The notes beneath the pieces were generated by a model. That model made no database searches. It was given only the letters and a program-made list of their open reading frames with translations, and had not been told where the DNA came from. A stretch of DNA of 64,000 nt from a virus, in the IMG/VR virus record IMGVR_UViG_3300033143_002274, positions 11,167-75,166 of that record. The stretch is one strand, 5' to 3'. Below, piece by piece: positions 9,516-62,178 of this stretch. The translations under genes and the position numbers were made by a program. Every line of letters starts with the position of its first letter. The first letter of the stretch is position 1.

Positions 9516-9821
9516 CTATAACAACCTGAAATGAATCAGATCTATATTATCTTGTATGTATTTGTAGAAGAAGTCAAGTTCTATTCCAAATTTATCATTG
9601 TAAGAAGTACTTATGGGTTCATATAAAGGATCATCTATACCCAGAACAGATATATAATCATCGTACTCCAAATCATTTATTATTACCACACACAATAAAT
9701 GTATATCAAATACCAGATGACCCTCGCCAAATCTGTTATACAACTTATACTTACTCAGATAAGATGTATGTATCTCAGGAAAATTTTCTATTACTTGTTG
9801 GGTGAAGTATTCAGGGGTCAT
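9516..9821 (-). CDS. Small protein, paralog family A
   Basis: N-term F..VIENFPE; C-term YKYIQDNIDLIHFRLL. Confidence 0.75.
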   Translation of the reverse strand: MTPEYFTQQVIENFPEIHTSYLSKYKLYNRFGEGHLVFDIHLLCVVIINDLEYDDYISVLGIDDPLYEPISTSYNDKFGIELDFFYKYIQDNIDLIHFRLL

Positions 9822-10138
9822 AACATTTTGAATGCCATCAACTCATTTATGTTTGGTTCTTGGGCAACCCATTGGTATATTCGTTTGTTAAGTAATAACC
9901 AGTTACCATATTCCACTTTCATAGCATCGAAAGAATCAACAATGTTATTTTGGTTCATCAACTTGTAAACGATACACCGTAATACAACTGTACTACAACT
10001 TGGCAAAACGTGTAAGGTTTCCCCAACATCAGCATCAAGACCTTTGTTTATAGTATGCATGGCATATGCAACTACCGCAGGGAATTCCTGTTGTATTCTC
10101 TTAACCACCACTCTGGCATTCCATCTACTCTGGCTCAT
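9818..10138 (-). CDS. Small protein, paralog family A
   Basis: IQQEFPA; C-term IYQWVAQEPNINELMAFKML. Confidence 0.75.
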   Translation of the reverse strand: MSQSRWNARVVVKRIQQEFPAVVAYAMHTINKGLDADVGETLHVLPSCSTVVLRCIVYKLMNQNNIVDSFDAMKVEYGNWLLLNKRIYQWVAQEPNINELMAFKML

Positions 10139-10512
10139 ACCTTGTACCCATTTTTTTTAAAATAGGCAATCGTCTTATTATCACAAGTAAATATGGCATC
10201 TTCTATTGCATACCCAACTTCTTTAGGGGTTCTGGTTTTACGTTTAGCCACATTGATCCATTTTACCCTTTGATCTTCACGTAAATCGTTTAGCATACGA
10301 AGAATCATAGCATGAGCATACGACAACACACCTTTATCAGATTCACATCTGGTGATCCAACCTCGACCTACGTTTAATACTTTTGCTAATCCCTCTTGGG
10401 TCAGCCTCAGATTTTCTCTGATGTTTTTCAATTCATCTGATGTCATTGTTACAGTGTTATCCACGTAATCAATGAGTTCCAATGCAATACGATCTGAATG
10501 TGTAAGTATCAT
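10135..10512 (-). CDS. XRE-family HTH DNA-binding protein
   Basis: ELKNIRENLRLTQEGLAKVLNVGRGWITRCES. Confidence 0.8.
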   Translation of the reverse strand: MILTHSDRIALELIDYVDNTVTMTSDELKNIRENLRLTQEGLAKVLNVGRGWITRCESDKGVLSYAHAMILRMLNDLREDQRVKWINVAKRKTRTPKEVGYAIEDAIFTCDNKTIAYFKKNGYKV

Positions 10513-10808
10513 AACATCCTCATTTGAATAAGTTCTTGATGGGTATTAATCCAATTGTAAATTCTACGATAGAGTATTGAGTACTTGCCGCGTTTGACAC
10601 CCATGTATTCAAATACTTTGTTAGTACCTTTATATTCAACCACAACCAATCTATCAACTATACGAAAAATCATTTTTGGATTATCAGCAGCATAATGAAA
10701 AAACATTAAATCATTCGTATTCATCCAACTGATGATGTATGGATACTCAGATTCAATCTTATCCATCAACTTAGTTGCAGTCATTCTTTTTTGGCGTTCT
10801 GAAATCAT
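10509..10808 (-). CDS. Small protein, paralog family A (start refined to ATGA overlap at 10808)
   Basis: IESEYPY; C-term IYNWINTHQELIQMRML. Confidence 0.7.
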   Translation of the reverse strand: MISERQKRMTATKLMDKIESEYPYIISWMNTNDLMFFHYAADNPKMIFRIVDRLVVVEYKGTNKVFEYMGVKRGKYSILYRRIYNWINTHQELIQMRML

Positions 10809-11110
10809 TTGAAATGATATTCTGATATTAGCTGACACCCAGACTTCTTAACGTACTGTTTACGTTTGTCTATTGGCATTGATGCAACCTTACGTAAAAG
10901 TTTTGCATGTTTCTTATCAACTGTTAACGTTGGGTTAGTGGAAGTTTCGTATACACGAACAGCAGTTTTGTCACTCTTAAGGAAACATACCATACCTTCT
11001 CTGGTAAGATCCAAAGCTATTCTGATCTTCTTGAATTCGAATTGTGTCATGCCAGCACCATCATCACGCCCGATACCGGCATGTATTCTTTCACACTGTG
11101 TTATCTTCAT
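10805..11110 (-). CDS. XRE-like HTH protein
   Basis: EFKKIRIALDLTREGMVCFL...VRVYE resembles the neighbouring HTH. Confidence 0.6.
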   Translation of the reverse strand: MKITQCERIHAGIGRDDGAGMTQFEFKKIRIALDLTREGMVCFLKSDKTAVRVYETSTNPTLTVDKKHAKLLRKVASMPIDKRKQYVKKSGCQLISEYHFK

Positions 11111-11319
11111 TTGTTCTTACCTTTCTGGAAGTAGTAATCAATTTTGTTTAAGAAACGTTCATCACAACTATGCATTGCAGCTTCCTTAGTGATGAATCCA
11201 CCAATGGGATGCACATCACCATCATAACTTCTCACGTAGTAATACCATTTGTTATCGGCAAAGAAGAATCTGTCTGATGAAAAATGTACATCATCATATT
11301 TGTCGGTCTGTCGCTTCAT
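11107..11319 (-). CDS. Small conserved protein (DUF6316-like)
   Basis: SDRFFFADNKWYYYVR..G..GGF.TKEAA pattern. Confidence 0.55.
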   Translation of the reverse strand: MKRQTDKYDDVHFSSDRFFFADNKWYYYVRSYDGDVHPIGGFITKEAAMHSCDERFLNKIDYYFQKGKNK

Positions 11320-11666
11320 ACTTTAAATTCCCACGATTTAAGTTTGGCCTTTAGCCTGTCTGCTGGATACGTCTGGATCACTCTGTCTAAATCATCAAAT
11401 GATAATTCTTCATCGACATCCAATCTGAGAATACGAGGGTACATGGCCTGATCCATTCGTATTCTTAATTCTGTATATTTTACGTAGTTGTTGATAAGTG
11501 AACGTTTACGTTCAACTTCTTCAGGGACATGTGATAGTTCTTTGGCAGCATCATAAGTTTGTGTGTCCATCATAACCAACACATCACTGTCATCAATAAC
11601 ATACAATGAATCTACTGATGGGGGTTCGAACATTTCTGCCCTGATTGAAAATAAATGTATGAACAT
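11316..11666 (-). CDS. Hypothetical protein
   Basis: Coupled ORF in early operon. Confidence 0.65.
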   Translation of the reverse strand: MFIHLFSIRAEMFEPPSVDSLYVIDDSDVLVMMDTQTYDAAKELSHVPEEVERKRSLINNYVKYTELRIRMDQAMYPRILRLDVDEELSFDDLDRVIQTYPADRLKAKLKSWEFKV

Positions 11667-11923
11667 TATAACTCCCTCATTACTACCATTTCTTGAACGA
11701 TATCTAATCCAGCATCAGTAAGATACCACCAGTAATACTTTTGTTTAATTCTGTCACCTTTGTGACTTGTAAGTATGATACCCTTACGTTCCAGTTCCTG
11801 AAATTTGTTTGGTCTTCCCATACACGAAAACTTATCATTACGATTACTCAGTCTTTTGTGTATTATGAATCTGTTAACCACATCATTTAACACAGTAATA
11901 TCATCGTCAGTGAAGTCTATCAT
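11666..11923 (-). CDS. Small winged-helix-like protein, paralog family B
   Basis: ELERKGII..YLTDAG; C-term VVMREL. Confidence 0.65.
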   Translation of the reverse strand: MIDFTDDDITVLNDVVNRFIIHKRLSNRNDKFSCMGRPNKFQELERKGIILTSHKGDRIKQKYYWWYLTDAGLDIVQEMVVMREL

Positions 11924-12117
11924 AGCAGAAAAAACTCAATTTTAGTAATGTTATTTCTGATGAATTCCAGATATGTTATCCGAAAATAATTAACTGGTTT
12001 ATTTCTGGTATTAGTAGGAGGTATAAATCCTGCTTTACGCGCAGCCCTATAACGGTCATTACCATTTTTTATAGGCATCAATCTGTTAAGTACTCGTATG
12101 TATTTTTCATCTGTCAT
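11920..12117 (-). CDS. Small protein, paralog family A
   Basis: MTDEKYIRVLNRLMP...YLEFIRNNITKIEFFLL. Confidence 0.75.
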   Translation of the reverse strand: MTDEKYIRVLNRLMPIKNGNDRYRAARKAGFIPPTNTRNKPVNYFRITYLEFIRNNITKIEFFLL

Positions 12118-12323
12118 AATATTTCAAACTCAATTCTGGCAACGTTGTATCTGATGAATTCCAGATATGCCACATGAAACTCGTGAGTAGCTGAATACTC
12201 AGTAACATACTTGTGTTGTGGGGGTACAAACCCAGCAGCCCTTACAATATCAAATCGTTCATTACCTCTTTCAAAATTCGGCAATAATTTCTTGATTGCT
12301 CGTTGATATTTTTCAAGTGTCAT
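12114..12323 (-). CDS. Small protein, paralog family A
   Basis: MTLEKYQRAIKKLLP...YLEFIRYNVARIEFEIL. Confidence 0.75.
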   Translation of the reverse strand: MTLEKYQRAIKKLLPNFERGNERFDIVRAAGFVPPQHKYVTEYSATHEFHVAYLEFIRYNVARIEFEIL

Positions 12324-12532
12324 AATAAATGGAACGCCACTAACTCTTTGTTGTATCTGAGGAATTCAATTGCAATAATTCTGGCATAATTTGACCTTGC
12401 TTTGCCACAACTTCTATCTGGAATGGATGAATCATTCATCCCCAATGTCTGAAGAAATTGATACATTTCCGTAAATTTTTGAGGCATTGGGTAATGTCTG
12501 TTAACCAACCGTTTGTATCTTGTAAGTGTCAT
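12320..12532 (-). CDS. Small protein, paralog family A
   Basis: MTLTRYKRLVNRHYP...IEFLRYNKELVAFHLL. Confidence 0.75.
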   Translation of the reverse strand: MTLTRYKRLVNRHYPMPQKFTEMYQFLQTLGMNDSSIPDRSCGKARSNYARIIAIEFLRYNKELVAFHLL

Positions 12533-12561
12533 AATCTACATTCCCAATTTCAATACGGGGA

Positions 12562-12590
12562 ATTATAGATTGAAAACAAAATTAAGTCAA
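12562..12590 (-). promoter_or_regulatory. sigma70-type early promoter
   Basis: TTGACT-17 bp-TATAAT heading the small-ORF operon. Confidence 0.85.
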
Positions 12591-12596
12591 GCGGTA

Positions 12597-12875
12597 TTAG
12601 CCTAGATATTCTCTGGTTGTTTCCCAGACTGCTTTAGATTTGAGTGATGCCTTGAGTGTTCCATGAACGTCCTTACCCAGATGGCGTATGATACCATTAA
12701 TCTGATCTTCCAGACGTTGTTTAGCCCAAGTTTTTTCTTCTGGTGTGCCGTACATCTGGTCAATACTCCAATACTGGTTAATCAATCTGATAACCTTCTG
12801 TAATGGGTTAGATCGTTCTTGTCTGTATGTTTTGCGCTCTTTCGAGTTAGCAGTGTTGAGTGTATGAGTTGTCAT
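12597..12875 (-). CDS. Hypothetical late protein
   Basis: ORF preceded by GATAAATA (12904-12911). Confidence 0.6.
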   Translation of the reverse strand: MTTHTLNTANSKERKTYRQERSNPLQKVIRLINQYWSIDQMYGTPEEKTWAKQRLEDQINGIIRHLGKDVHGTLKASLKSKAVWETTREYLG

Positions 12876-12928: not shown

Positions 12929-13384
12929 ATGGAATTAGATATTGGACATTGGGAAACCGAGTTAAACGAATTTGACCCAGAAGATTTTTATGGGTTTGTG
13001 TACAGGATTATTAATGTTGTTACAAATCAAGAGTACATCGGAAAAAAACAATTGAAATCAAGGAACAGAGTCAAGGTTGCTGGACGCAAAAATCGTAAGA
13101 TTGTTTTCAGGAATACCAATTGGAAGAAGTACACATCAAGCAGTAAACGAATCAATGAAGAAATAGAAGAACATGGTAAGGAACGATTCAGATTTATTAT
13201 CATATCCTTACACGTCAGTAAGGGATCACTTGTCTACAAAGAAATCTTTCTTCAGATAACAGAGAATGTGATGCGTGAGAAGTTACCTGATGGTACACGT
13301 AAGTACTACAATGGAAACATTGGCAGCGTTAAATTTTTACCACCTGATGAAACATTACTCGAATCACAATTCAAAGTTTGTTAA
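12929..13384 (+). CDS. GIY-YIG family endonuclease
   Basis: YGFVYRIIN..YIGKK, WKKYTSSS, ERFRFIII. Confidence 0.8.
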   Translation: MELDIGHWETELNEFDPEDFYGFVYRIINVVTNQEYIGKKQLKSRNRVKVAGRKNRKIVFRNTNWKKYTSSSKRINEEIEEHGKERFRFIIISLHVSKGSLVYKEIFLQITENVMREKLPDGTRKYYNGNIGSVKFLPPDETLLESQFKVC

Positions 13385-21341: not shown

Positions 21342-22175
21342 ATGTTTGAAGAAGAAAACCAAGACGAAGTTACCAAAAAAGAAAAACCAAAAAAGAAAGC
21401 ATCAAAACCAAAAGAAGATCTGAGTGTGAAGTATTACTCTGTGGATCTTCCATCTAAAGGTATGCTTGATTATCCAGAAGAAGTTGAATACAGGGACATC
21501 CTTGTACGTGATGAAAAAATCTTATCTGCTGCCACTTCAGTAAATTTTCAATCTATAATTAACAAAGTACTGAAATCATTATTAAAAGACGATGAAGTGT
21601 TTGACCAACTTACGATCTATGATCGTGATTACCTTATGTTGTGGGTATGGGCAAACAACTATACAACCACCAAAGATTTCGATGTAACATGTGATTACTG
21701 TACGAATGTAGATCATATTACAGTTGATGTTACCAAAACTGATATTACAGAATTATCTGACGAATATGAAAATCCATTTGAATATACATTAAGTAATGGT
21801 TCGGCAGTGAACCTAAGACTGCTCACTGTTAAAGATGAAGAAATTGCAGAAAATTTTACTAAAAAGAATAAAAAAGATTCAGTGGAATCCGTCTTATTCG
21901 CCATGAGTATTGACATAGGCAAAGTAATGATGCTCCCCCAAAAGTTGAAATGGATCGAAGATAACATCAACGGACATGACATGGGGATGATCAGGGGATT
22001 CCAAGAGTATTTCAAATATGGTATTGATGATAAAGTTGAACATACCTGTACATCGTGCGGTGAGGTCACGACTCACACTATACCCTTTTCTCTCGAATTC
22101 TTTATGCCAACCTTACGAAACGATTTTGCGAAAATGCTTCGAACTAACAAGCGGTCTAAGCATAAGTCCACTTGA
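21342..22175 (+). CDS. gp26: Baseplate hub assembly chaperone
   Basis: LPSKG, DE.IL, DRDYLM, CDYC and CTSC pairs, LEFF. Confidence 0.85.
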   Translation: MFEEENQDEVTKKEKPKKKASKPKEDLSVKYYSVDLPSKGMLDYPEEVEYRDILVRDEKILSAATSVNFQSIINKVLKSLLKDDEVFDQLTIYDRDYLMLWVWANNYTTTKDFDVTCDYCTNVDHITVDVTKTDITELSDEYENPFEYTLSNGSAVNLRLLTVKDEEIAENFTKKNKKDSVESVLFAMSIDIGKVMMLPQKLKWIEDNINGHDMGMIRGFQEYFKYGIDDKVEHTCTSCGEVTTHTIPFSLEFFMPTLRNDFAKMLRTNKRSKHKST

Positions 22176-34339: not shown

Positions 34340-35098
34340 ATGATTAATAAATTTATAGATAATATTCCAACCAATATACATGGTGAGTTCGAACTAAAAA
34401 TAATTGAAAAATCGACAGGTAATGTTATTGATTCATATGAAGACAAAAATATCATTGTACTTGATTCAAAATCAGCAATTATAAGTGCAATATCAACCAC
34501 TAACAACAATGGGGTTATTGAGGTATTGAAAGTGGGGAGTGATGTGGGTGATCCAGTATCAATGACCGGAACACCAAATCTTAATTTTGTTGATTCAAAT
34601 CCAGATACAATAGTTCGTACCACTGGTAGTTGGGTGACTGATGGTTTCATAGATGAAATGGTAATAACCATAACAAGTTCAACCAGTAATAATACAACGT
34701 ATACTATTGATTCTGTTACTGCAACCACACTCACCTTAATTAGTGGTGACACAATTGTAGTTGAAACTGGTAGTTCTGGTGTATCAGTTTCTGGCGCACC
34801 TTCCTTAGATAATCCAATACCACCATCAGACACATATAACGCAAGTACAATGTCTATTATATATACTGATCCCGACCCATTCACTGTTGGGTATTCTAAT
34901 TCTACATCAGTTACATTCAGTTCAACTATATCGGGTGTAGACGTAATGACTTATTACCCACTTGATATAACTAAAATAATCACAAGTGCTGCATTACATA
35001 CTGGTAATACTAATGTGTTTGCCTATAAACGATTCCCCCAAAAATCAATATCCAAATTAGTTGATATATTGGTTAACTGGACGATAAAATTTGATTGA
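34340..35098 (+). CDS. Baseplate/tail-fibre attachment protein; start refined to 34340
   Basis: HGEF.L, KNIIV, FAYKRFP...W.I.F. Confidence 0.6.
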   Translation: MINKFIDNIPTNIHGEFELKIIEKSTGNVIDSYEDKNIIVLDSKSAIISAISTTNNNGVIEVLKVGSDVGDPVSMTGTPNLNFVDSNPDTIVRTTGSWVTDGFIDEMVITITSSTSNNTTYTIDSVTATTLTLISGDTIVVETGSSGVSVSGAPSLDNPIPPSDTYNASTMSIIYTDPDPFTVGYSNSTSVTFSSTISGVDVMTYYPLDITKIITSAALHTGNTNVFAYKRFPQKSISKLVDILVNWTIKFD

Positions 35099-46889: not shown

Positions 46890-47413
46890 TAGCTTTGTGT
46901 CCAGATGTCCACAGTACCAGAGCCAGTTTTAACGAATTGTAGACCAGTACCAGAACCTTCAACGAAAGTAAATTTAGATAGACCTGCGCCAATAACTTCA
47001 TATGATACGAAATTACCTACGTCAATTGCACCATCAATTGTGACAGTATCATCTGTGATAACTTCAGCAGTTACAGTAGCAGTGGCAAATGTTAATGCTA
47101 ATGCGGTAACACCAGTTATGACATATGCAGAACCATCATTGCTTGCAGTGTTAGCAATAGTCAGTGTCATACCAACACCAAAACCATCATCAATCCAACT
47201 GCCTCGGTTACGAGTAAGTGAATCATCACCACCTGCACCATCAACGAATTCCAACGAAACATTATCACCAACATATGCTCCGATAACTTGTTCCTTTAGT
47301 GTTATCCTTACGTCAACTGTTGCTGTGCCACCACATTTTATGATGTATGAAACATCTTGTGGTGTCTTTATAACGATAGTGCCTGTGTTAAGATATTCTC
47401 TGATCGCGCTCAT
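46889..47413 (-). CDS. Virion decoration-like beta protein
   Basis: Late promoter, GGAG RBS, contains GSWIDDGF module. Confidence 0.6.
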   Translation of the reverse strand: MSAIREYLNTGTIVIKTPQDVSYIIKCGGTATVDVRITLKEQVIGAYVGDNVSLEFVDGAGGDDSLTRNRGSWIDDGFGVGMTLTIANTASNDGSAYVITGVTALALTFATATVTAEVITDDTVTIDGAIDVGNFVSYEVIGAGLSKFTFVEGSGTGLQFVKTGSGTVDIWTQS

Positions 47414-48805: not shown

Positions 48806-48834
48806 TTGACAGCAGGAAGTTTTCAATCTATAAT
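48806..48834 (+). promoter_or_regulatory. Perfect sigma70 early promoter
   Basis: TTGACA-17 bp-TATAAT. Confidence 0.9.
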
Positions 48835-48859
48835 AGTTCCATCAACTGAGGGAAAGATT

Positions 48860-49222
48860 ATGAAAACTCGTACAGCACATGATACAGCTTGGGATACACT
48901 GTCTGACTTACACAAAGATGTTTATGGATTCCGTCCACGTGGTGTATACGATTTCGACTCAATGTCTACTGATGATATTGAAGACGAGATTGAACGTCTT
49001 ATTCCTGCTTTGAATGAAGTTGTCGCAGCAGAACAAGCACGTGAACGAGCAGCGATTGTAGCATTCGAACAGGTTATCACTGAAACCATTGCTAATGGTG
49101 CAGGTACTCGTGCCAATGCAATCAACTGGTTGCGTGATGCAGAAGAAGACGATTTTATGACTGATGGTTACTTCGGTTTTCTTTACGGTCTTCCTCACAA
49201 CTACTTTGAGAAAGCAGCATAA
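48860..49222 (+). CDS. Conserved early phage protein; start refined to 48860
   Basis: SDLHKDVYGFRPRG motif; GAGGG RBS. Confidence 0.75.
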   Translation: MKTRTAHDTAWDTLSDLHKDVYGFRPRGVYDFDSMSTDDIEDEIERLIPALNEVVAAEQARERAAIVAFEQVITETIANGAGTRANAINWLRDAEEDDFMTDGYFGFLYGLPHNYFEKAA

Positions 49223-49587
49223 TGGAGAAGGTAACTAATTACGGATACTCTAAGAGGGCGGGTAAACCCCCTAAGATGTATAAGATCATTATAAACAATA
49301 GTGCCAATAGGATTGATGGGTTTGATATGGTTCGTACAAAAACTGGAAAAATTGTACGTCTGGGTAATAACATGGAGGTAAGTTTGCTTAATGAATACAG
49401 CTTCTATTATGCTGCAACACATGGTGAGAATGGATCGCCTATATTTATTGTTAATGATGGCAGTCTATATCTGAGTTGTTATTGGGGTGACATAATGGAA
49501 CACAAAGAATTATTTGCAGATCTTAGCAAGAAAGTTTACAGAAAAGAGTTAACAGCATTTGACTTACTAGGATTCTTAGTGTTATAG
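49222..49587 (+). CDS. Hypothetical protein
   Basis: Coupled ORF; ends GFLVL. Confidence 0.6.
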   Translation: MEKVTNYGYSKRAGKPPKMYKIIINNSANRIDGFDMVRTKTGKIVRLGNNMEVSLLNEYSFYYAATHGENGSPIFIVNDGSLYLSCYWGDIMEHKELFADLSKKVYRKELTAFDLLGFLVL

Positions 49588-52048: not shown

Positions 52049-52495
52049 ATGACAGACATACAAGCAGAACTAGATAAATTTCAAATAAGATTCGATGAAC
52101 TTGAGAAAACTGCTGAAGCAGACTTAGCACTTCAGGGTAAGAGATTGGAACAGGCACAGACACCACACCCAACATTACAACACAATTGGGGTAAGTTGGG
52201 AGCAGGATTATCTTGGTTATATGAAGAAGCAAAGAATGATGCAGACACTGCATTTGGGCAAGCATACACCAATGCCCAGAATGACAGTTACAAAACACGT
52301 TCTTCAACTGATGCTAAATGGATAGCAGAAAAGGATGACAGGTATAACAAAGCAGTCAGAATCAAGAACAAGGTTTATAGATTGAAAAAAGAAGTGGATA
52401 ATGTCACTGATGTTATTGAAAGTCGTAAGTACATCTTGAAGGACTTGACTAACAGCATAATCCACTCAGTGAATAATTCTAAACTATACATATGA
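52049..52495 (+). CDS. uvsY: Recombination mediator
   Basis: Helical ~150 aa, SSTDAKW.AE.D pattern; between uvsX and uvsW. Confidence 0.7.
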   Translation: MTDIQAELDKFQIRFDELEKTAEADLALQGKRLEQAQTPHPTLQHNWGKLGAGLSWLYEEAKNDADTAFGQAYTNAQNDSYKTRSSTDAKWIAEKDDRYNKAVRIKNKVYRLKKEVDNVTDVIESRKYILKDLTNSIIHSVNNSKLYI

Positions 52496-52722
52496 TGCCG
52501 TTGAAACACATGCGTAACCGTGAAGATTTCTTCAAGGCGTTATTGCACTATACTGTGGTCGAATATGACAATACTTCTGATGTTGATAATTACATCCTTT
52601 GGGGGATTGGTTCAGAATTAATCAACGTAACAAATGATAAGCACACATCAGATTACCACCATCATGCTAATCTTGAGTTGACTGACAGTGGCAAAGCATA
52701 CGTGGCTTTTTTAACATTATGA
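52492..52722 (+). CDS. Small protein, paralog family B
   Basis: LELTDSGKAYVAFLTL. Confidence 0.7.
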   Translation: MMPLKHMRNREDFFKALLHYTVVEYDNTSDVDNYILWGIGSELINVTNDKHTSDYHHHANLELTDSGKAYVAFLTL

Positions 52723-52976
52723 AACTGTTTCCTCATAGACATATGAAACTGTTCCCTCATATTGATGGCAGGGTGATTGAACGTTGGAAGGTCATATACC
52801 AACACCAAAGTGACCCACATGAAATTTTACATATTGATGATTCTTACTTTTTCCTGTACTCAAATGCGATAACGTATGGATTTTTAAAATTAGATTGCAC
52901 ACATAACAATCAAGAAGATTATCAGTTTTCGTTAACTGAAGATGGGGAAGCGTACATTACCTTTATGTTATTATGA
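52719..52976 (+). CDS. Small protein, paralog family B
   Basis: AITYGFL..SLTEDGEAYITFMLL. Confidence 0.7.
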   Translation: MKLFPHRHMKLFPHIDGRVIERWKVIYQHQSDPHEILHIDDSYFFLYSNAITYGFLKLDCTHNNQEDYQFSLTEDGEAYITFMLL

Positions 52977-53269
52977 TTACATTTATAGAAAATCCGATGT
53001 TTCGCCGGTATGCTGTCCATACAGATGTCCCCTTTCATACTAGGATATGGAACGAATATGTGATATTGGGGATACCCCAAATTAGAATTTTATGTACTGA
53101 TAAATCAAAGTATAAAGACGCTATTGATGAAAGTATCAAACGTGGTGAAGTGATTATAACACATAAACGCCCATTGTATCCAAGTGTCAACAGTGACTCA
53201 CATACCTTCATATATGATTTGATTGTATCCGATATGATGATAAACAAAATAGTATTTGATAGGTTATGA
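52973..53269 (+). CDS. Small protein, paralog family B
   Basis: QIRILC.D..IDESIKRG..TFIYDL..IVFDRL. Confidence 0.7.
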   Translation: MITFIENPMFRRYAVHTDVPFHTRIWNEYVILGIPQIRILCTDKSKYKDAIDESIKRGEVIITHKRPLYPSVNSDSHTFIYDLIVSDMMINKIVFDRL

Positions 53270-53541
53270 AAGATTTTAGTAAAGGTGAGTTTGTTTCCTA
53301 CCAACTTAAAGACGAGTTTAAAAGGCAGCTAAGAAAACATAATGGTTATCAGATACGTGAACTGTGTGTTGATATCTCACCGAAGAAAGAGACTATAGAT
53401 AACGCAGTTGCCTGTGGATTTCTTACTATTACCAATGTTACAATAGCACAAGTACAACTTACAGATCATAACAATACATTTTTGTATGATTTGATGTTGA
53501 CAGAAGAAGGGAAAACTTACATAGAGTTTATGTTATTATGA
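53266..53541 (+). CDS. Small protein, paralog family B
   Basis: QIRELC.D..AVACGFL..YDLMLTEEGKTYIEFMLL. Confidence 0.7.
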   Translation: MKDFSKGEFVSYQLKDEFKRQLRKHNGYQIRELCVDISPKKETIDNAVACGFLTITNVTIAQVQLTDHNNTFLYDLMLTEEGKTYIEFMLL

Positions 53542-53786
53542 CACCAATGGATTACCCAACCACATCAACTACATACATGAAACATTTGTTTGGGGAAAAA
53601 TCAACACGTGAACTTGATTGTGATGACAATTCGCCATATGCGAGATTTATACAACAGGCGAATGCTGATGGATATCTCACATACAAAATTTTAGAATCTT
53701 TACCACAGAGCAAGACAACCAGACGAGCATATGAATTACAATTAACGACATTAGGAGAAATGTACGTTAAATACCTATTACTATAA
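53538..53786 (+). CDS. Small protein, paralog family B
   Basis: RELDCD..ANADGYL..YELQLTTLGEMYVKYLLL. Confidence 0.7.
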   Translation: MTPMDYPTTSTTYMKHLFGEKSTRELDCDDNSPYARFIQQANADGYLTYKILESLPQSKTTRRAYELQLTTLGEMYVKYLLL

Positions 53787-55261: not shown

Positions 55262-55732
55262 ATGCATTTACTTGACGAGAACTATGAACGAATTGAAACA
55301 TTTGACAATAACAAAGCTAAACTATTCTGGACATTTGATATAGACTCTTGTGACTTCTTTTTGAAGTCATGTTTGTTATGGCAAAGTATAACATCTGATG
55401 CCTATGTATTAAGTGTTGGTAACGGTTCTGTTATGATACCCTATAATTACTACATTGTAATTGGTGATTATGATTCTGGATTCGATTGTATAACCCCAGA
55501 AGAAATTATGGGTAGGGAGTTTGATGCCTATACTTTCTCTAATGATTTGAACGAAGGTTCACATATGTTAGAACCTATCAATGTAACGGATTATGTAGAA
55601 GATGCAGTATTCGTCTTACCATTCGTCAAGAGTGTATTCCCGACTACAATTTCAGACAAGCGTTCGATGTTCATCATCAACAAAGATTCATACAACAAAT
55701 TTAAGAACTTATCCATATCAGAAATACTATGA
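55262..55732 (+). CDS. Conserved hypothetical protein following uvsW
   Basis: ORF in operon. Confidence 0.65.
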   Translation: MHLLDENYERIETFDNNKAKLFWTFDIDSCDFFLKSCLLWQSITSDAYVLSVGNGSVMIPYNYYIVIGDYDSGFDCITPEEIMGREFDAYTFSNDLNEGSHMLEPINVTDYVEDAVFVLPFVKSVFPTTISDKRSMFIINKDSYNKFKNLSISEIL

Positions 55733-56106
55733 GTACATTCACGAAAAAGAAAAAAATAGATTTTCCTGATAGCATAACATCAGAACAATTTCTTGATAAA
55801 GTCAAATACTTTTTCCCTGCGCTGTATGCCATAGCAAGAGAACAAGCACTCAATAAAGTCAAGATTAATATTATGGAACTGAGGTATGATTATGGTGTTA
55901 ATGGTTTTGCCAAAAGTAAAACGTACCAAGAAGAATTTGTGGAGATAGGTGATAATCACCACAATCAGCTTATAATAAATGTAATTATTACTTCTTCTGC
56001 GTTCATGGAGAATATACGTGGTGGGCACACATACGACCAATATCTTTATAAACTCTACGTATATGTCACCAACAACAAACATAAACATGAGTTCTGGTTC
56101 TTATAA
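55729..56106 (+). CDS. Small protein, paralog family A
   Basis: QFLDKVKYFFPAL...LYVYVTNNKHKHEFWFL. Confidence 0.7.
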   Translation: MSTFTKKKKIDFPDSITSEQFLDKVKYFFPALYAIAREQALNKVKINIMELRYDYGVNGFAKSKTYQEEFVEIGDNHHNQLIINVIITSSAFMENIRGGHTYDQYLYKLYVYVTNNKHKHEFWFL

Positions 56107-58161: not shown

Positions 58162-58467
58162 ATGGTTTACGAAGGTTATAAATCGACACAATCCACAATC
58201 AGATTATTGGAAAAACATTATCCTAACTTCACATACAAGTGCAGACAAGAATATATTGATGACGAACTGTATATAGGAACTGATTTAAAAACGTTACGGG
58301 TGTTTGCCAAGAAAGTATTCTATCCTATAAACTTGAAAAACCTGATGGCACAAACTAGTGGCAAAGATTGGATACCAGCAGTAAGAGACAAAGAACTAAA
58401 CGATTTTCTGAACTTCATAGAAAATGCGGAAGACATACAACAAATATTATTAATGAGTGAGTTATAA
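58162..58467 (+). CDS. Small protein, paralog family A; start refined to 58162
   Basis: LLEKHYPNF...FLNFIENAEDIQQILLMSEL; AGGAGG RBS. Confidence 0.65.
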   Translation: MVYEGYKSTQSTIRLLEKHYPNFTYKCRQEYIDDELYIGTDLKTLRVFAKKVFYPINLKNLMAQTSGKDWIPAVRDKELNDFLNFIENAEDIQQILLMSEL

Positions 58468-59847
58468 ATGCCAGTACATGCATCATCTGTTATATCAACA
58501 ACAATCAACACGTTCGACTCTGAACTTTATGTCACACTTACTGACATGGAAAACAATCAGTACACTGCTGGTACTAATGGTCAGTTAACTGAATACCAGC
58601 CACTATTCCAAGATCTAAGTGACAGCATTATTGCATGGATGAATATTGACCGTTCAGATAAGATTACTGACTTGATTCAGGGTCTATATGGTTACAAAAC
58701 TTTCATTGACAATTATGGTACTGATGATACATTGATTGCAACCAGTGATGCTAATGTGTTGATGGGTATGGATGGCTTCAGGGACGATATGAAGGATGTT
58801 AATTTATTCAATCGTAGTGAAGAATTCGATGATATTGCGTGGGGTAAGGGTGGAAATATAACAGTAACACCAAATGATACAACATCACCTTTTGGTGATG
58901 TTACTGCCGATAAATTTTCCTTATCTGCTGGCCTTGGTTATGGTTACATTCGCAAAGGTGCAACTGTAACCATAAATGATCAGTATACAGTAAGTGGGTA
59001 TGTAAAAAAAGATACACATAAATATATTGGTATAAGAATTTATGGTAGTGGGACACATGCCACTTTTGATTTAGATACGTTAACATGGACTAACACTTCA
59101 AACTTTGACAGTTTTTCTTATGAAGATGCTGGTAATGGTTGGTATCGTATTATTGTTACTGGGACAGTTCCTGCTACTGGATTTAATTATGCTGGATTTT
59201 GTGTAGTTGATAGTGCTGGTGCTGAATATTGGACTCCTTCTGGTGGAGAATCTTTATTTTTATGGGGGGGTCAAATGGTCAAAAGTGATGTACCCAGAGC
59301 ATATTATAAAACTGAAGCTACTGCTGCTGATAACTATGTAACGCAGTATGATGATTACCCCACACTAACTTTTGCTGGAAGCACCATCACTCGTAGTACA
59401 GGTAGTTGGATTGATGATGGCTTCATTGATGCTCTGAGTGTTACTGTAACAGGTTCAACCAGTAATAATACAACACTGACCGTAAGCACAAGTGGTGTAA
59501 CCGCATTAGTATTAACCGTTGATGAAACCTTGTCTGCTGAATCAAATAGTGCTAATGTTATCGTATCAGGTACAGGCGCACGTATGAGTGATTCTGCTAT
59601 GTCCACAGATAAAGGGTTGATTGATAATGCATTCACATCACAAGAAGATCCTAATACAGATTCTTTGATAACTGGATATACCGCACCAATCAAAGGTCAA
59701 ATTTTCATTATGCTGTTTGCTGATGTTACCCCCATAGGATCATCAACTAAAGATCAACTGAATACTTATATATTTGACACGTTGCATTACCGTACCGTAT
59801 TTGATAATATGAACACTGGTAGTTATGTAGCACCAACCGCACCATAA
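58468..59847 (+). CDS. Virion-associated protein with two shuffled beta domains
   Basis: NLFNRSEEF..W domain shared with gp6; GSWIDDGF module. Confidence 0.65.
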   Translation: MPVHASSVISTTINTFDSELYVTLTDMENNQYTAGTNGQLTEYQPLFQDLSDSIIAWMNIDRSDKITDLIQGLYGYKTFIDNYGTDDTLIATSDANVLMGMDGFRDDMKDVNLFNRSEEFDDIAWGKGGNITVTPNDTTSPFGDVTADKFSLSAGLGYGYIRKGATVTINDQYTVSGYVKKDTHKYIGIRIYGSGTHATFDLDTLTWTNTSNFDSFSYEDAGNGWYRIIVTGTVPATGFNYAGFCVVDSAGAEYWTPSGGESLFLWGGQMVKSDVPRAYYKTEATAADNYVTQYDDYPTLTFAGSTITRSTGSWIDDGFIDALSVTVTGSTSNNTTLTVSTSGVTALVLTVDETLSAESNSANVIVSGTGARMSDSAMSTDKGLIDNAFTSQEDPNTDSLITGYTAPIKGQIFIMLFADVTPIGSSTKDQLNTYIFDTLHYRTVFDNMNTGSYVAPTAP

Positions 59848-59860
59848 AAGGAAAATCAAA

Positions 59861-60151
59861 ATGGGTAAACGTAAAGGTTCAAGTAAGCAAGGCAAACTTA
59901 ATTACAATCTGTATGCATCTGATATGAGATCTCATACCAATCGTACTGCTCGTCTTGAGAAGCATTGTAAAAACTTCCCTGAAGATAAACAGGCAAAATC
60001 ATCACTTAAAAAAGGTCTTGCTGATTACAGACGGTATGCTCCACGAAATAAGATATGGACTGCAACCAATCGGTACTTTGCTCAACTTTTCGTCAAAGCA
60101 GGAATGAACGGTAATGACGCACTCCCAAAGAAAGAGTTCAGTAAAACTTAA
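59861..60151 (+). CDS. Small basic hypothetical protein
   Basis: AAGGA RBS; NR.ARLEKH...P.D.QA. Confidence 0.65.
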   Translation: MGKRKGSSKQGKLNYNLYASDMRSHTNRTARLEKHCKNFPEDKQAKSSLKKGLADYRRYAPRNKIWTATNRYFAQLFVKAGMNGNDALPKKEFSKT

Positions 60152-60371
60152 AAGTCATGATCACTTCAGGGAAGTTATATTAAGTAATTTCCCTGAATTG
60201 CAACATAAGATATTCATAATTGATCATGTTACAGTTGGTGATATTAAATATCTTATGAATTTATGTAATTTTGACGGTGATCCCAGATCTTCTGGTGCTA
60301 TTATTAAATTAGAACCATTGACTAATTATATGATTGACAATAAGCATATGTATGAGTGGTGGCAATTGTGA
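60114..60371 (+). CDS. Small protein, paralog family A
   Basis: HFREVILSNFPEL...NYMIDNKHMYEWWQL. Confidence 0.7.
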   Translation: MTHSQRKSSVKLKSHDHFREVILSNFPELQHKIFIIDHVTVGDIKYLMNLCNFDGDPRSSGAIIKLEPLTNYMIDNKHMYEWWQL

Positions 60372-60583
60372 ACGTTACTGACTTCAGGTATAATGTTTAT
60401 AATTTATTCCCAGATATCATGACACATAAACACCTACTTACTGATGGCAACATTAACACAATGAAATTGGTAAAAGCTACTAATTACGATGTAAATTTCG
60501 ATTACGAAAATAGAACTACATATGATAGTTTCTATGAGTACCTTGAAGAAAATCAACACATGTATGAATGGTGGATGTTATGA
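60368..60583 (+). CDS. Small protein, paralog family A (GTG start)
   Basis: DFRYNVYNLFPDI...FYEYLEENQHMYEWWML. Confidence 0.7.
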   Translation: MNVTDFRYNVYNLFPDIMTHKHLLTDGNINTMKLVKATNYDVNFDYENRTTYDSFYEYLEENQHMYEWWML

Positions 60584-60972
60584 ATGACCCAAGAATAATT
60601 CAGAATATGATACGTACTCCCGATGGCAGAATTCTTGTCAGTGGTAGTGTGCATGATTACAGAGCGTACACTGATGCCAATGGATTTCAATACATGGTTG
60701 ATGGTGGCAGAAGTTATCTGAGGCGTAATCTTGTTAGGGAAGCACCCTATGAAGAACTATCTTTATTTGAGGGTGATCCACATGACAAGGTTCGTGTTAA
60801 TTTTACATGGGGTAGCAGGGGGGTTAATGGTGATCAACCATTAGTTTTCAATCTATTAAAAGACTTGGATGTTGACCACGTAAAAGCTATAATCGAAACC
60901 CAGAAACATCTACCTGATTACATGGTGGATGTGTTCAAAGCAGAATTGGAATACAGAAATGAAAAAAAGTAA
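60580..60972 (+). CDS. Conserved hypothetical phage protein
   Basis: IRTPDG..L.S..VHDY, MVDGG.SYLRR, WG.RG..GDQP. Confidence 0.7.
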   Translation: MNDPRIIQNMIRTPDGRILVSGSVHDYRAYTDANGFQYMVDGGRSYLRRNLVREAPYEELSLFEGDPHDKVRVNFTWGSRGVNGDQPLVFNLLKDLDVDHVKAIIETQKHLPDYMVDVFKAELEYRNEKK

Positions 60973-61879
60973 CATATGGTATGAGAAGTACCAACCAAAA
61001 GATTTAGAGGAATTCATTTTTGCTAATGAGTCTGATGAAAAGTTGTTTAACTCTTTTGCTGACAATAAGGATATTCCTAACTTACTGATCTCTGGGATAC
61101 AGGGTACTGGCAAGTCATCAATGGTTGCCATCCTTATCAATGAATTGGGTATCAACAAATTTGACACAAAGATTATCAACGGTTCATCTAAGACAGGTGT
61201 TGATAACATCCGTAATAGTGTTGAAGGTTTTGCAAAAACATTAGGCACTGGTAAATTTAAAGTTGTTGTGTTTGAAGAAGCAGAAGAACTTTCGTTACAG
61301 GCACAAAAAGCATTACGTATGATCATAGATAATGCACCAGAAACAGTTAAATGGATCTTCACCAGTAATTATCCTGATAAGATTATTCCTGCACTTCACA
61401 GCAGATTACAACATGTACACATCACCCAATTAGATTATGAGTCTATCGTGGAACGTGTCCTTGAAATTATGGTGAGTGAGTCTGTTGAATTCACCAAAGA
61501 AGAAGACATTTATACACATATTGATGCGTACACTCCCGACTTACGTAAGATTATTACAAGCATCCAACAACATTCTATGTCAGGTACATTGCAACCATTA
61601 ACTGAACGTAGTGCTGGTAGTAACGGGTTTGATGAATGGGAACAGTTATGGAAAGATGTTCCTGATAAAGATGATGTTATGCATCTTATCCCCCAGTTAG
61701 ATTTGTCCAGTGTCGATAAGTATTACAGGGTGATGTATGAAAGTATCACTGGTGTAAGTAAAGAACTTAATGAAGATGCAATTGTTACCATTGCAGATCA
61801 TTTGTATAAGTCAAACTTTGTTGCCGATCAAGAAATCAATCTTATGGCATGTATCATACTGATGTACAGCAGTGACTAA
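60959..61879 (+). CDS. gp44: Sliding clamp loader large subunit; start refined to 60959
   Basis: WYEKYQP, IPNLL..G.QGTGKS, INGS, EEAE.L, ALR, LHSR, DLRK. Confidence 0.93.
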   Translation: MKKSNIWYEKYQPKDLEEFIFANESDEKLFNSFADNKDIPNLLISGIQGTGKSSMVAILINELGINKFDTKIINGSSKTGVDNIRNSVEGFAKTLGTGKFKVVVFEEAEELSLQAQKALRMIIDNAPETVKWIFTSNYPDKIIPALHSRLQHVHITQLDYESIVERVLEIMVSESVEFTKEEDIYTHIDAYTPDLRKIITSIQQHSMSGTLQPLTERSAGSNGFDEWEQLWKDVPDKDDVMHLIPQLDLSSVDKYYRVMYESITGVSKELNEDAIVTIADHLYKSNFVADQEINLMACIILMYSSD

Positions 61880-62178
61880 TGGAAAATCTTGAATTCGAAA
61901 GAGCATTCAAAAAAGAATTTCCTGAATTCGATTATCTGTTTGACCAATTTAAAAATTTCACTAATGAGTTTAACAATGGCGGCACACCATTCGTACAATA
62001 TGTCGTTGAATATGTTTTTGAATTGGTAGATACTGATAACGAATATCGTGGGTTCAGTGGTGACAAATATTCCGAAGAAACATACATTAAGGGTGAAACC
62101 CAATACAGTAGGGCGAATCAATACACCTTTAATTTCTTGAAAGAGAAAAAGCACATGCTTGTATTTTGGTTGTTATAG
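61879..62178 (+). CDS. Small protein, paralog family A
   Basis: EFERAFKKEFPEF...FNFLKEKKHMLVFWLL. Confidence 0.7.
   Translation: MENLEFERAFKKEFPEFDYLFDQFKNFTNEFNNGGTPFVQYVVEYVFELVDTDNEYRGFSGDKYSEETYIKGETQYSRANQYTFNFLKEKKHMLVFWLL

What the first reader, a model, noticed from the sequence alone, without database searches (positions are those of the whole stretch)
9516..62178. Dispersed 11-member small-protein family with conserved ends and a hypervariable middle (family A)
Seen: ORFs at 9516, 9818, 10509, 11920, 12114, 12320, 55729, 58162, 60114, 60368 and 61879 (65-125 aa) begin with a helix ending in an aromatic/hydrophobic residue then Pro (IENFPE, QEFPA, SEYPY, YFFPA, KHYPN, SNFPE, NLFPD, KEFPE). 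They end with approximately (Y/F)x(Y/F/W)(I/L)xxNxxxxx(F/W/M)xxL-stop, and the middles are unalignable by eye. Six lie in the operon behind the strong early promoter at 12590; the rest are slotted among replication and virion genes. Inference: a constant scaffold displaying diversified surfaces, i.e. a library of binders or adaptors (anti-defence or host takeover).
Basis: partly seen in the sequence, partly recalled or inferred. Interest (0 to 1): 0.8.

Follow-up and report, generated by a model that had tools for sequence, protein, structure and literature searches.

The report
New small phage protein family, conserved ends
Seven of the eleven flagged small genes form a real, undescribed phage protein family with tightly conserved ends and a fast-evolving middle; three more share only the end pattern, one does not belong, and the final "Leu-stop" is a habit of the whole genome.

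Summary
All 11 ORFs and the quoted motifs exist. The record is a 75-kb fragment, about 32% complete, of an uncultured T4-like phage.

Profile tests split the set:
- Core family, 7 genes (9516, 9818, 10509, 55729, 60114, 60368, 61879). They are linked by BLAST, iterative HMM and near-full-length profile-profile alignments (E 2e-4 to 2e-5; reversed controls at best 0.013).
- A clear paralog trio (11920, 12114, 12320). Its link to the core is a 14-17-column C-terminal match that cannot be separated from background.
- 58162 is unsupported.

An exhaustive search found 14 full-length relatives, all unnamed metagenome proteins. No Pfam, PHROG, NCBIfam, PADLOC or PDB match was found.

Within the 9516-like group, mean identity is 61% (N-terminus), 18% (middle) and 86% (C-terminus). 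"Conserved ends, variable middle" therefore holds. The middle is still alignable, and no diversity-generating machinery was seen.

The terminal Leu is not a family trait: 40 of 131 ORFs end in Leu, mostly TTA overlapping the next ATG. A hydrophobic C-terminal tail occurs in 19 of 131 genes, including the unrelated winged-helix-like family B; a related phage has none.

Function is inferred only: early/middle accessory binding proteins. This is a new family of a familiar kind, of moderate interest.

The parts
9516..9821 (-). A1, core family member (101 aa, acidic). Last gene of the early operon.
   Evidence: HMM of the 55729/60114/60368/61879 group finds it as the top non-self hit of 506 ORFs, E 0.014. 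Five full-length metagenome relatives. hhalign to 61879-like: prob 71%, E 3.6e-5, 90 columns.
9818..10138 (-). A2, core family member (106 aa). Paralog of A3; follows an XRE-type HTH gene.
   Evidence: BLASTP to A3 E 1.4e-6 over 104 aa. The A2/A3 profile aligns to the A1-like profile at prob 48%, E 1.9e-4, 89 columns.
10509..10808 (-). A3, core family member (99 aa from the ATG at 10808, which overlaps the upstream stop as ATGA; the listed GTG at 10838 is less likely).
   Evidence: Second-round HMM hit E 0.028, top non-member of 506 ORFs. Ortholog P0025 is 75% identical and starts at the equivalent place.
11920..12117 (-). A4, member of a separate paralog trio (65 aa, basic). Same end architecture; homology to the core unproven.
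   Evidence: BLASTP to A5 E 8e-18. Against the core only E 0.15-0.29. hhalign 7%, 14-17 columns.
12114..12323 (-). A5, trio member (69 aa).
   Evidence: AF2 model is all-helical, pLDDT 69. No relative outside this genome in the word-indexed search.
12320..12532 (-). A6, trio member (70 aa). First gene behind the early promoter.
   Evidence: BLASTP to A4 E 1.4e-6 and to A5 E 1.7e-5.
55729..56106 (+). A7, core family member (125 aa) with a 16-residue basic N-terminal extension and the longest middle.
   Evidence: BLASTP to A10 E 1.6e-4 and to A9 E 6e-3. Core HMM E 2e-14, though it was part of that model.
58162..58467 (+). A8, not supported as a member (101 aa). Sits between a PAAR-like gene and a 459-aa gene.
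   Evidence: Never recovered by any HMM. hhalign to core groups prob at most 0.4%. Not in the top 22 of the N+C PSSM test.
60114..60371 (+). A9, core family member (85 aa) with a basic N-terminal extension.
   Evidence: BLASTP to A10 E 1e-7. Relative P0016 has the same extension.
60368..60583 (+). A10, core family member (71 aa from the GTG at 60368, overlapping the A9 stop). The minimal form of the family.
   Evidence: Ortholog P0002 is 69% identical, 71 aa, with Pro also at residue 15. AF2 gives helix-helix-3 strands-helix-helix, pLDDT 64.5.
61879..62178 (+). A11, core family member (99 aa, acidic). Follows the clamp loader and overlaps a convergent gene by 6 nt.
   Evidence: Syntenic ortholog in L001:375-644, 40% identical, while the neighbouring clamp loader is 69%. 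Six further relatives.
12562..12590 (-). Sigma-70-type early promoter TTGACT-17-TATAAT that drives A6 through A1.
   Evidence: 11 of 12 consensus matches. The same extended -10 word recurs at two other canonical promoters.
10135..10512 (-). XRE-type HTH gene directly upstream of A2. Half of a duplicated two-gene module.
   Evidence: Pfam HTH_31 E 1.4e-6, 28.9 bits, above the 27-bit cut-off. Paralog of 10805-11110, E 2e-6.
10805..11110 (-). XRE-type HTH paralog directly upstream of A3.
   Evidence: BLASTP to 10135-10512: E 2e-6, 27% identity.
9508..9526 (-). 19-nt word GGTTGTTATAGATTGATAA covering the last codons and stop of A1 plus 8 nt beyond.
   Evidence: Exact copy at the A11 end; 0.01 expected by chance. 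It contains an 11-mer found 7 times in the window, 0.11 expected.
62168..62186 (+). Second exact copy of the 19-nt word, at the 3' end of A11.

Best explanation
Shown: seven genes (9516, 9818, 10509, 55729, 60114, 60368, 61879) are paralogs of one previously undescribed family, found only in phage-like metagenome sequence. The proteins are soluble and 70-125 aa long. Each has:
- an N-terminal amphipathic helix with hydrophobic residues at i, i+4 and i+8, ending in aromatic-Pro (Pro at residue 15 in the minimal forms);
- a fast-evolving middle, predicted with low confidence to be three strands;
- a C-terminal aromatic helix (aromatic-x-x-aromatic-aliphatic-x-x-Asn) followed by a short hydrophobic tail.
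The ends are held by purifying selection on the protein, not on the DNA. The middle drifts about three to five times faster.

The family has expanded by tandem and dispersed duplication. One duplication copied a two-gene unit, an XRE-type HTH gene plus a family member.

Four core members (with the trio, six of the eleven flagged genes) are transcribed from a strong sigma-70-type early promoter; the other three core members lie in the replication gene block.

Inferred: the two terminal helices pack into the constant part of the domain, as core and/or docking face for a conserved partner. The variable middle gives each paralog its own specificity. On this reading they are early/middle accessory binding proteins (host takeover, anti-defence or regulator-modulating), not enzymes.

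The trio 11920/12114/12320 is either a very divergent branch or an unrelated small helical protein that carries the same terminal signals. 58162 is not a member.

My odds: a real family of at least 7, about 0.9. Ends constrained at the protein level, about 0.8. Binding or adaptor function, about 0.35.
For: Family:
- BLASTP links.
- Unbiased iterative HMM against all 506 ORFs recovers candidates in order: A1 at E 0.014, then A3 at E 0.028.
- With metagenome relatives added, hhalign gives A1-like/A11-like prob 71% (E 3.6e-5, 90 columns), A1-like/A9-A10-like 66%, A1-like/A2-A3 48% (89 columns), and A9-A10-like/P0011 78%. Reversed-sequence controls reach at best E 0.013.
- An exhaustive profile search of 1.84 billion representatives gives 14 real full-length hits of 87-102 aa, with E down to 2e-14 among hits outside this genome.

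Constrained ends:
- Region identities are 61/18/86% and 47/28/57%.
- A11 against its ortholog: C-terminal pN 0.21 with pS 0.92.
- Hydrophobic tail positions use varied codons (TTT, TTC, TGG, ATG, TAC), and A9/A10 differ at synonymous sites in the conserved end.

Architecture and context:
- Both AF2 models place helices at residues 3-13 and at the C-terminus, with the best pLDDT there.
- Early promoter and operon packing.
- Duplicated HTH + A module: HTH pair E 2e-6, A2/A3 pair E 1e-6.
- Soluble, with charge from -11 to +7.5.
- No hit in Pfam, PHROGs, NCBIfam or PADLOC.
Against: - No functional evidence of any kind.
- AF2 confidence is low, and no coordinates were available to check that the N- and C-helices touch.
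- Profile-profile probabilities are moderate (48-78%), not decisive.
- The link to the trio is not separable from background.
- Part of the C-terminal signal is shared with unrelated proteins of the same genome and with gene-boundary DNA words, which inflates apparent similarity.
- The near-invariance of the last 22 residues of A1-like proteins, polar positions included, is more than a fold core usually needs.
Confidence: 0.5

Rival explanations
1. Shared C-terminal short linear motif. The tail (hydrophobic-x-[F/W/Y/M]-x-x-Leu-COOH) would be a signal used throughout the phage and carried by unrelated small proteins. It could dock them on a hub, as the C-terminal tails of T4 gp43, gp33 and gp55 dock on the sliding clamp (recalled from the literature, not tested). 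Alternatively it could be a C-terminal degradation or stability tag that times early proteins. On this view the resemblance of the trio, of 58162 and of family B to the core is convergent, and family A is simply the largest fold that carries the tag.
For: - 19 of 131 genes carry the tail, against 0.35 expected from internal frequency, or 1.4 expected given a terminal Leu.
- Carriers include 10 of 11 family A genes, six winged-helix-like family B genes, and three singletons (49222, and two upstream of the window).
- hhalign finds no similarity between family B and family A.
- The hydrophobic positions use varied codons, so selection acts on the protein.
- The tail also occurs where no gene follows (A1, A11) and in all metagenome relatives.
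- The nearest cultured relative has 0 tails in 69 ORFs and only 8 of 69 ending in Leu.
Against: - No partner is identified.
- No sliding-clamp gene is found in this 32% fragment, so docking cannot be tested.
- The regex was written after seeing the sequences.
- Terminal Leu codons are enriched for A-ending TTA/CTA, 75% against 43% internally. That points to a start/stop-overlap contribution.
- It does not explain the conserved N-terminal helix or the near-full-length profile alignments within the core.
Confidence: 0.3
2. Gene-boundary artefact. The 'conserved ends' would be by-products of compact gene packing. ATGA start/stop overlaps force NNA last codons (TTA = Leu) and A-starting second codons (ACN = Thr, giving 'MT...'). 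Ribosome-binding sequences of the next gene and an over-represented DNA word at operon ends would shape the last codons. Only the obvious paralog pairs and the trio would then be real.
For: - 40 of 131 ORFs end in Leu. 15 of 23 ATGA overlaps end in Leu, 13 of them TTA.
- AGG or GAG often sits 2-4 codons before the stop.
- A1 and A11 share 19 identical nt that run past the stop and contain an 11-mer present 7 times in the window.
- Many members start with MT.
Against: - Boundary effects reach about 5 codons, whereas conservation spans 17-22 residues at each end.
- Profile alignments within the core span 65-90 columns.
- Relatives from other samples keep the ends while synonymous sites are saturated.
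- A phage of similar GC content with 10 ATGA overlaps shows no Leu excess.
- The start-anchored N motif occurs in 5 of 506 ORFs, all of them candidates, against 0.21 expected (the regex is post hoc).
Confidence: 0.08
3. Regulator-partner modules. At least A2 and A3 would work as pairs with the XRE-type HTH protein encoded just upstream. Either the HTH is an autoregulator of a strongly expressed small effector (like anti-CRISPR plus Aca operons, with the gene order reversed), or the pair is toxin-antitoxin-like. Family A would then be the effector half.
For: - The two-gene unit HTH + A was duplicated as a block, with matching divergence: HTH pair 27% identity, E 2e-6; A pair 24-27%, E 1e-6.
- The genes overlap by ATGA.
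- The HTH proteins resemble MqsA/HipB-type antitoxin HTH domains, but below the curated cut-offs: TIGR03830 at E 1.2e-8, 34.8 bits against a cut-off of 61.8.
- They lie in a strong early operon that holds a third DNA-binding-like gene (11666).
Against: - Only 2 of the 7 core members have an HTH neighbour.
- XRE HTH genes are common in phage early regions.
- No family member matches any toxin or defence model.
Confidence: 0.2
4. Degenerate nuclease fold. The core family would be a minimal, probably inactive PD-(D/E)xK (restriction-endonuclease-like) domain.
For: - Language-model look-alikes of A11 include clusters partly annotated Endonuc-PvuII (22% of members), RE_Bsp6I (57%), ThaI (91%) and RE_NgoBV (12%), at scores 0.83-0.86.
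- The predicted order for A10, helix then three strands then helix, is compatible with that core.
Against: - All scores are below the tool's 0.9 lead threshold, with few shared features (120-138 of 256).
- No Pfam hit at E up to 1.
- PF09225 and PF09504 find nothing in the genome at E up to 10, though the PF09225 control matched nothing in any genome, so that search is uninformative.
- No conserved D...(D/E)xK. The only such string (D-x6-EYK in A3) is lost in its ortholog and its paralog.
- Fold searches give no nuclease match.
Confidence: 0.06

Closest known systems
Arrays of small early 'host-takeover' ORFans in large lytic phages (T4 early genes; Bacillus phage SPO1 host-takeover module). 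From general knowledge.
   Same: Short soluble proteins packed with overlapping stops and starts behind strong sigma-70-type early promoters. Lineage-restricted, fast-evolving, and without database families.
   Different: Those arrays are mostly unrelated singletons. Here at least seven genes are paralogs of one family with a fixed end architecture, and copies are also scattered through the replication block. No target is known for any member.
C-terminal sliding-clamp-binding tails of T4/RB69 gp43, gp33 and gp55. From the literature as I recall it; not tested here.
   Same: A short hydrophobic/aromatic peptide at the extreme C-terminus, carried by otherwise unrelated proteins of one T4-like phage. 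This phage has a gp55-like late sigma factor and a gp44-like clamp loader.
   Different: The motif differs in sequence (hydrophobic-x-aromatic-x-x-Leu, not the Leu/Phe-rich acidic T4/RB69 tail). 19 carriers is far more than in T4. The gp55-like protein here does not end in the tail. No clamp gene is on this fragment.
Anti-CRISPR / Aca (HTH) operons and XRE-antitoxin pairs. From general knowledge.
   Same: A small, fast-evolving protein without a family, encoded next to a small HTH protein under a strong early promoter. The module was duplicated as a unit.
   Different: The gene order is HTH first. Only two members are paired. There is no match to known Acr, Aca, toxin or defence models.
Family B of the same genome (winged-helix-like small proteins at 52492-53786 and 11666)
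   Same: Same size class, same tandem packing, same hydrophobic tail ending in Leu.
   Different: No profile similarity to family A: hhalign prob at most 2%, E at best 0.02. It has a different conserved core (Y-x-L-x-L-T-x-x-G wing motif) and lacks the N-terminal aromatic-Pro helix.

Membership tests
Family A core (as defined here) | Near-full-length profile-profile similarity between subgroups that exceeds reversed-sequence controls | tested here: met
   Met for A1, A2, A3, A9, A10 and A11: prob 48-78%, E 2e-4 to 2e-5, mostly 65-90 columns, with controls at E 0.013 or worse. A7 is linked by BLASTP E 1.6e-4 to A10; its hhalign prob is only 5-13%.
Family A core | Same criterion applied to the trio 11920/12114/12320 | tested here: inconclusive
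   Only 14-17 C-terminal columns align: prob 7%, score 19.4 against a control maximum of 18.2. HMM E 0.15-0.6, though these are the top-ranked non-members. Ranks 14-19 of 342 in the core-only N+C PSSM test. They share the start-anchored motif with Pro at residue 15 (regex is post hoc). The AF2 middle is helical rather than stranded, at low confidence.
Family A core | Same criterion applied to 58162 | tested here: not met
   No HMM hit better than E 1.2. hhalign to every core group gives prob at most 0.4%. Its only resemblance is a 12-column match to the trio (E 3.6e-3).
Family A core | Ends conserved and middle divergent among orthologs and relatives | tested here: met
   Identity at N-terminus / middle / C-terminus: 61/18/86% (A1-like, 6 sequences), 47/28/57% (A11-like, 8 sequences), 27/31/62% (A9/A10-like). 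pN 0.21 at the C-terminus against 0.41 in the middle.
Diversity-generating (programmed hypervariable) target | Template/variable repeat pair differing at adenines, plus a reverse transcriptase | tested here: not met
   No repeat of 24 nt or more links any member's middle to another site. The only repeats involving members are the paralogous ends (D5, D7, I2). Caveat: the record is about 32% complete.
Type II toxin-antitoxin pair or Acr-Aca operon (A2/A3 with the XRE HTH) | The adjacent HTH protein belongs to an antitoxin or Aca family | tested here: inconclusive
   Generic HTH_31 is above its cut-off (28.9 against 27 bits). MqsA/HipB-type models are well below theirs (34.8 against 61.8; 26.9 against 71.65).
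Type II toxin-antitoxin pair or Acr-Aca operon | The small partner belongs to a known toxin, Acr or defence family | tested here: not met
   No hit in Pfam, PHROGs, PADLOC or NCBIfam.
PD-(D/E)xK restriction-endonuclease-like fold | Conserved catalytic D...(D/E)xK and a family profile match | tested here: not met
   No conserved acidic/Lys triad in the alignments. No Pfam match. Fold membership itself is inconclusive, because the models are of low confidence.
T4-type clamp-tail proteins (gp33/gp55/gp43-like docking) | Extreme C-terminal hydrophobic peptide | tested here: met
   Tail present in 10 of 11 family A genes and 19 of 131 genes overall. The motif differs in sequence from the T4/RB69 tail as I recall it.
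T4-type clamp-tail proteins | A sliding clamp encoded by the phage, and binding of the tail to it | not testable with these tools
   PF09116 and PF02916 find nothing on this fragment, which CheckV rates about 32% complete. The clamp may lie on the missing two thirds.

The most novel reading that the evidence does not exclude
The hydrophobic C-terminal tail (hydrophobic-x-aromatic-x-x-Leu-COOH), carried by at least three unrelated small-protein groups (family A core, the trio, winged-helix-like family B and singletons; 19 of 131 genes), is a docking or timing code used across the whole phage. It would plug many early/middle proteins into one hub (sliding clamp, RNA polymerase or a protease). 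Family A would then be a radiating set of tail-docked adaptors whose variable middles bring different cargo or targets to that hub.
Probability: 0.15. Interest if true: 0.8.

Novelty: new variant of a known kind. Interest (0 to 1): 0.45.

Why it matters
Large lytic phages carry many small early genes of unknown role. Such genes are the main source of newly found inhibitors of host defence, transcription and replication.

This case offers a multi-copy family with a fixed pair of terminal helices and a fast-changing centre, plus relatives from several samples. That is a natural comparative series: the constant ends show where to look for a common partner, and the variable centres show where specificity lies.

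Separately, the C-terminal tail and the terminal Leu are strongly over-represented across unrelated proteins of this phage and absent from its nearest cultured relative. If this is a real signal, it would be a simple, testable example of a proteome-wide C-terminal code in a virus.

If neither holds, this is one more ORFan family in an uncultured phage that is probably from a hydrothermal vent.

Tried and rejected
- Family libraries: Pfam, PHROGs, PADLOC and NCBIfam scans of the members gave nothing at E of 0.01 or better.
- PDB sequence search with the A1-like and A11-like profiles gave nothing credible.
- ESM Atlas: A3 gave nothing above 0.79. A11 gave the weak nuclease lead only.
- Complex prediction of the 10805-11110 HTH protein with A3 returned no verdict (score 0.00, partner fold uncertain). 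It counts neither for nor against binding.
- Phage collection: blastn of both gene blocks found no match. The nearest cultured phage by terminase and UvsW is only 33-38% identical.
- Related loci: IMG/VR and GTDB-genome scans with the clamp loader and with the A1-like and A11-like alignments found none. The metagenome scan gave one 1.1-kb contig.
The 14.9-134-kb contigs that encode the metagenome relatives therefore could not be fetched. Synteny, codon-level tests and DNA-level conservation of the ends could not be done beyond one ortholog pair.
- Sequencing runs: no RNA holder is listed. One DNA run (hydrothermal vent metagenome) holds an identical 224-nt contig, 11953-12176. This is no evidence on expression.
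- The word-indexed search for the trio found only this genome's own three proteins. That search is limited by sensitivity.
- Single-genome profiles: hhalign between subgroups gave prob below 10% and could not be told from the best non-members. Only after adding metagenome relatives did the core links become clear.
- A literature search for comparable families found nothing relevant.

Full report
**What the window is.** It is 64 kb of a single 75,166-bp virus record. The record is linear and CheckV rates it about 32% complete.
- It encodes T4-type functions: UvsW, UvsX, SbcCD-like nuclease, a gp55-like late sigma factor, PhoH, a clamp loader, a GroES-like protein and a ClpP-like protease.
- Its nearest cultured relatives, the Alishewanella phages Slicko01/Slickus01, are only 33-38% identical in UvsW and terminase. 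There is no DNA-level match in the phage collection.
- A hydrothermal-vent metagenome run holds an identical 224-nt piece.
- Any count of family members is a lower bound.

**Observation.** All eleven ORFs exist with the quoted N-terminal strings and aromatic C-termini.
- The six left-hand genes lie head to tail on the minus strand, mostly with ATGA overlaps, behind TTGACT-17-TATAAT at 12590-12562.
- Two starts need adjusting. A3 most likely begins at the ATG at 10808, which overlaps the upstream stop. A10 begins at the GTG at 60368. Both match their orthologs.

**One family or several?**
- BLASTP gives three solid groups: 11920/12114/12320; 9818/10509; and 60114/60368 linked to 55729 and 61879.
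- An HMM of the last group, searched against all 506 ORFs of the genome, finds A1 as its best non-member (E 0.014). With A1 added, A3 comes next (E 0.028), then A4 and A5 at non-significant E values.
- With profiles from this genome alone, hhalign could not separate cross-group matches from the best non-members.
- The exhaustive profile search changed this. It returned 14 real, full-length, unnamed metagenome proteins: five A1-like, six A11-like, one A9-like and one divergent. Word-indexed searches added orthologs of A10 (69% identity) and A3 (75%), and a syntenic A11 ortholog lies next to the clamp loader.
- With these added, A1-like, A11-like, A9/A10-like and A2/A3 profiles align to one another, mostly over 65-90 columns, at probabilities 48-78% and E 2e-4 to 2e-5. 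Reversed-sequence controls reach at best E 0.013.
- I therefore accept a core of seven: A1, A2, A3, A7, A9, A10 and A11.

**The trio and A8.**
- The trio matches the core only over the last 14-17 columns (probability 7%).
- It has no relative outside this genome in the word-indexed search.
- It ranks 14-19 of 342 in an N+C PSSM test built from core sequences only.
- It does share the start-anchored pattern (aromatic at residue 6, hydrophobic at 10 and 14, Pro at 15). Only A1, A4, A5, A6 and A11 of 506 ORFs satisfy this pattern, against 0.21 expected, but I wrote that regex after seeing the sequences.
- Its status is open.
- A8 (58162) is never recovered and is not a member.

**Are the ends really conserved and the middle variable?** Yes.
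- Mean pairwise identity is 61% (first 17 residues), 18% (middle) and 86% (last 22 residues) among six A1-like proteins. It is 47, 28 and 57% among eight A11-like proteins.
- Three A1-like relatives share all of A1's last 21 or 22 residues, while their middles are barely alignable.
- For A11 against its ortholog, synonymous sites are saturated throughout. Non-synonymous divergence is 0.21 in the C-terminal 21 codons, 0.41 in the middle and 0.40 at the N-terminus. The adjacent clamp loader shows 0.20.
- So the C-terminal module evolves as slowly as a core replication protein, and the rest about twice as fast.
- 'Hypervariable' overstates it. The middles align within subgroups and even between them. 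No template/variable repeat pair of the kind a diversity-generating retroelement needs is present; a reverse transcriptase was not searched for.

**What is not family-specific.**
- 40 of 131 ORFs end in Leu (Leu frequency 7.9%; p = 4e-14). Outside families A and B it is still 23 of 114 (p = 3e-5).
- Terminal Leu codons are 75% TTA/CTA, against 43% internally. 15 of 23 ATGA overlaps end in Leu. Start/stop overlap therefore contributes.
- It is not the whole story. The tail (hydrophobic-x-[FWYM]-x-x-Leu-COOH) occurs in 19 of 131 genes against 0.35 expected. It uses varied codons, occurs where no gene follows (A1, A11), and is kept in all relatives.
- It is absent from 69 ORFs of the nearest cultured phage, which has similar GC content and 10 ATGA overlaps.
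- The tail is also carried by the winged-helix-like family B, which has no profile similarity to family A.
- So the last five or six residues cannot be used as evidence of common descent. They may be a signal in their own right. An earlier scan note made the same suggestion for family B (e1-6079410); I tested only the count.

**DNA words at the ends.**
- A1 and A11 share an exact 19-nt word that runs 8 nt past the stop.
- Its core 11-mer occurs 7 times in the window (0.11 expected) and 8 times in the genome.
- In the opposite orientation it reads TCAATCTATAA. That is the extended -10 of three canonical TTGAC(T/A)-17-TATAAT promoters, including the one that drives A6 to A1.
- At the A1 and A11 ends it lies antisense and has no -35 element.
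- This adds a possible DNA-level constraint on the last three or four codons of those two genes.

**Structure.**
- AF2 on A10 (7-row alignment) gives pLDDT 64.5 with the order helix 3-13, helix 15-19, three strands, helix 53-61, helix 66-70.
- AF2 on A5 (3 rows) gives pLDDT 69 and four helices.
- Confidence is highest in the terminal helices.
- No PDB fold match was found by either aligner.
It is not met for the core of seven, is met for A8, and is undecided for the trio.

**Context clues to function.**
- The proteins are soluble, aromatic-rich (up to 23%), and range in net charge from -11 to +7.5.
- A2 and A3 each follow an XRE-type HTH gene, and the two-gene unit was duplicated as a block.
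- The early operon also contains a family B gene.
- No enzyme motif is conserved.
- A weak language-model lead to small restriction-endonuclease families found no support.

**Conclusion.** This is a real, new, lineage-restricted family of at least seven small early/middle phage proteins. It has protein-level constraint on both termini and a rapidly diverging centre. It most plausibly consists of small binding or adaptor proteins, which is an inference (about 0.35). The claimed family of eleven is inflated by genome-wide gene-end features. The more unusual item is the phage-wide C-terminal tail. The scan had noted the tail before on this same genome, not on other DNA.

Noticed in passing
window 9511-9521, 12563-12573, 21548-21558, 48823-48833, 52375-52385, 62173-62183, 63341-63351; one more copy about 6.1 kb upstream of the window: The 11-mer TTATAGATTGA (reverse complement TCAATCTATAA) occurs 7 times in the window against 0.11 expected. 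In three copies it is the extended -10 of canonical TTGAC(T/A)-17-TATAAT promoters (12590, 48806, and one upstream of the window). Two copies lie antisense across the stop codons of A1 and A11 without a -35 element. They may be weak antisense promoters or another signal.
   Followed up: partly
whole genome (131 ORFs of 50 aa or more): 30% of ORFs end in Leu (40 of 131, p = 4e-14), mostly TTA or CTA. The phage carries its own tRNA-Leu(TAA). The nearest cultured phage shows no such excess (8 of 69).
   Followed up: partly
window 52492-53786, 11666-11923, 49222-49587; two genes upstream of the window: The hydrophobic C-terminal tail (hydrophobic-x-[FWYM]-x-x-Leu) is also carried by five tandem winged-helix-like genes, by a sixth in the early operon, and by three unrelated singletons.
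   Followed up: partly
window 9818-11110: Tandem duplication of a two-gene unit, an XRE-type HTH followed by a family A gene: 10805-11110 + 10509-10808, and 10135-10512 + 9818-10138.
   Followed up: partly
window 9451-9510: Just downstream of A1 there are short direct repeats (AGTAATCTTA twice, TTATCTTA-type 15-mers twice) at 22-32-nt spacing. They could be iterons or operators.
   Followed up: no
window 48806-48870: The listed ORF start at 48806 overlaps a canonical promoter (TTGACA-17-TATAAT). The real start is probably the internal ATG near 48860, which follows GAGGGAAAG.
   Followed up: no
window 12929-13381: An ORF matching homing-endonuclease families and a family labelled NAD synthetase (phrog_447, phrog_7363) sits divergently next to the early promoter.
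   Followed up: no
window 35992-36462; 34615-34698, 59391-59474 and 47167-47215: Three tandem 168-nt-spaced copies of a 135-nt unit lie inside a large + strand gene. A module of about 50-84 nt is shared at 76% by the 459-aa gene next to A8, a gene at 34.6 kb, and (inverted) a gene at 47.2 kb. This may be exchange of a tail-fibre-like module.
   Followed up: no
window 59861-60151; two ORFs upstream of the window (about 7.0 and 2.2 kb before it): Isolated look-alikes of single family A motifs: KNFPED in the 96-aa basic protein before A9; LEDNYPEV at the start of a 53-aa ORF; DNKNMYEAL at the end of a 109-aa ORF. None reaches significance.
   Followed up: partly
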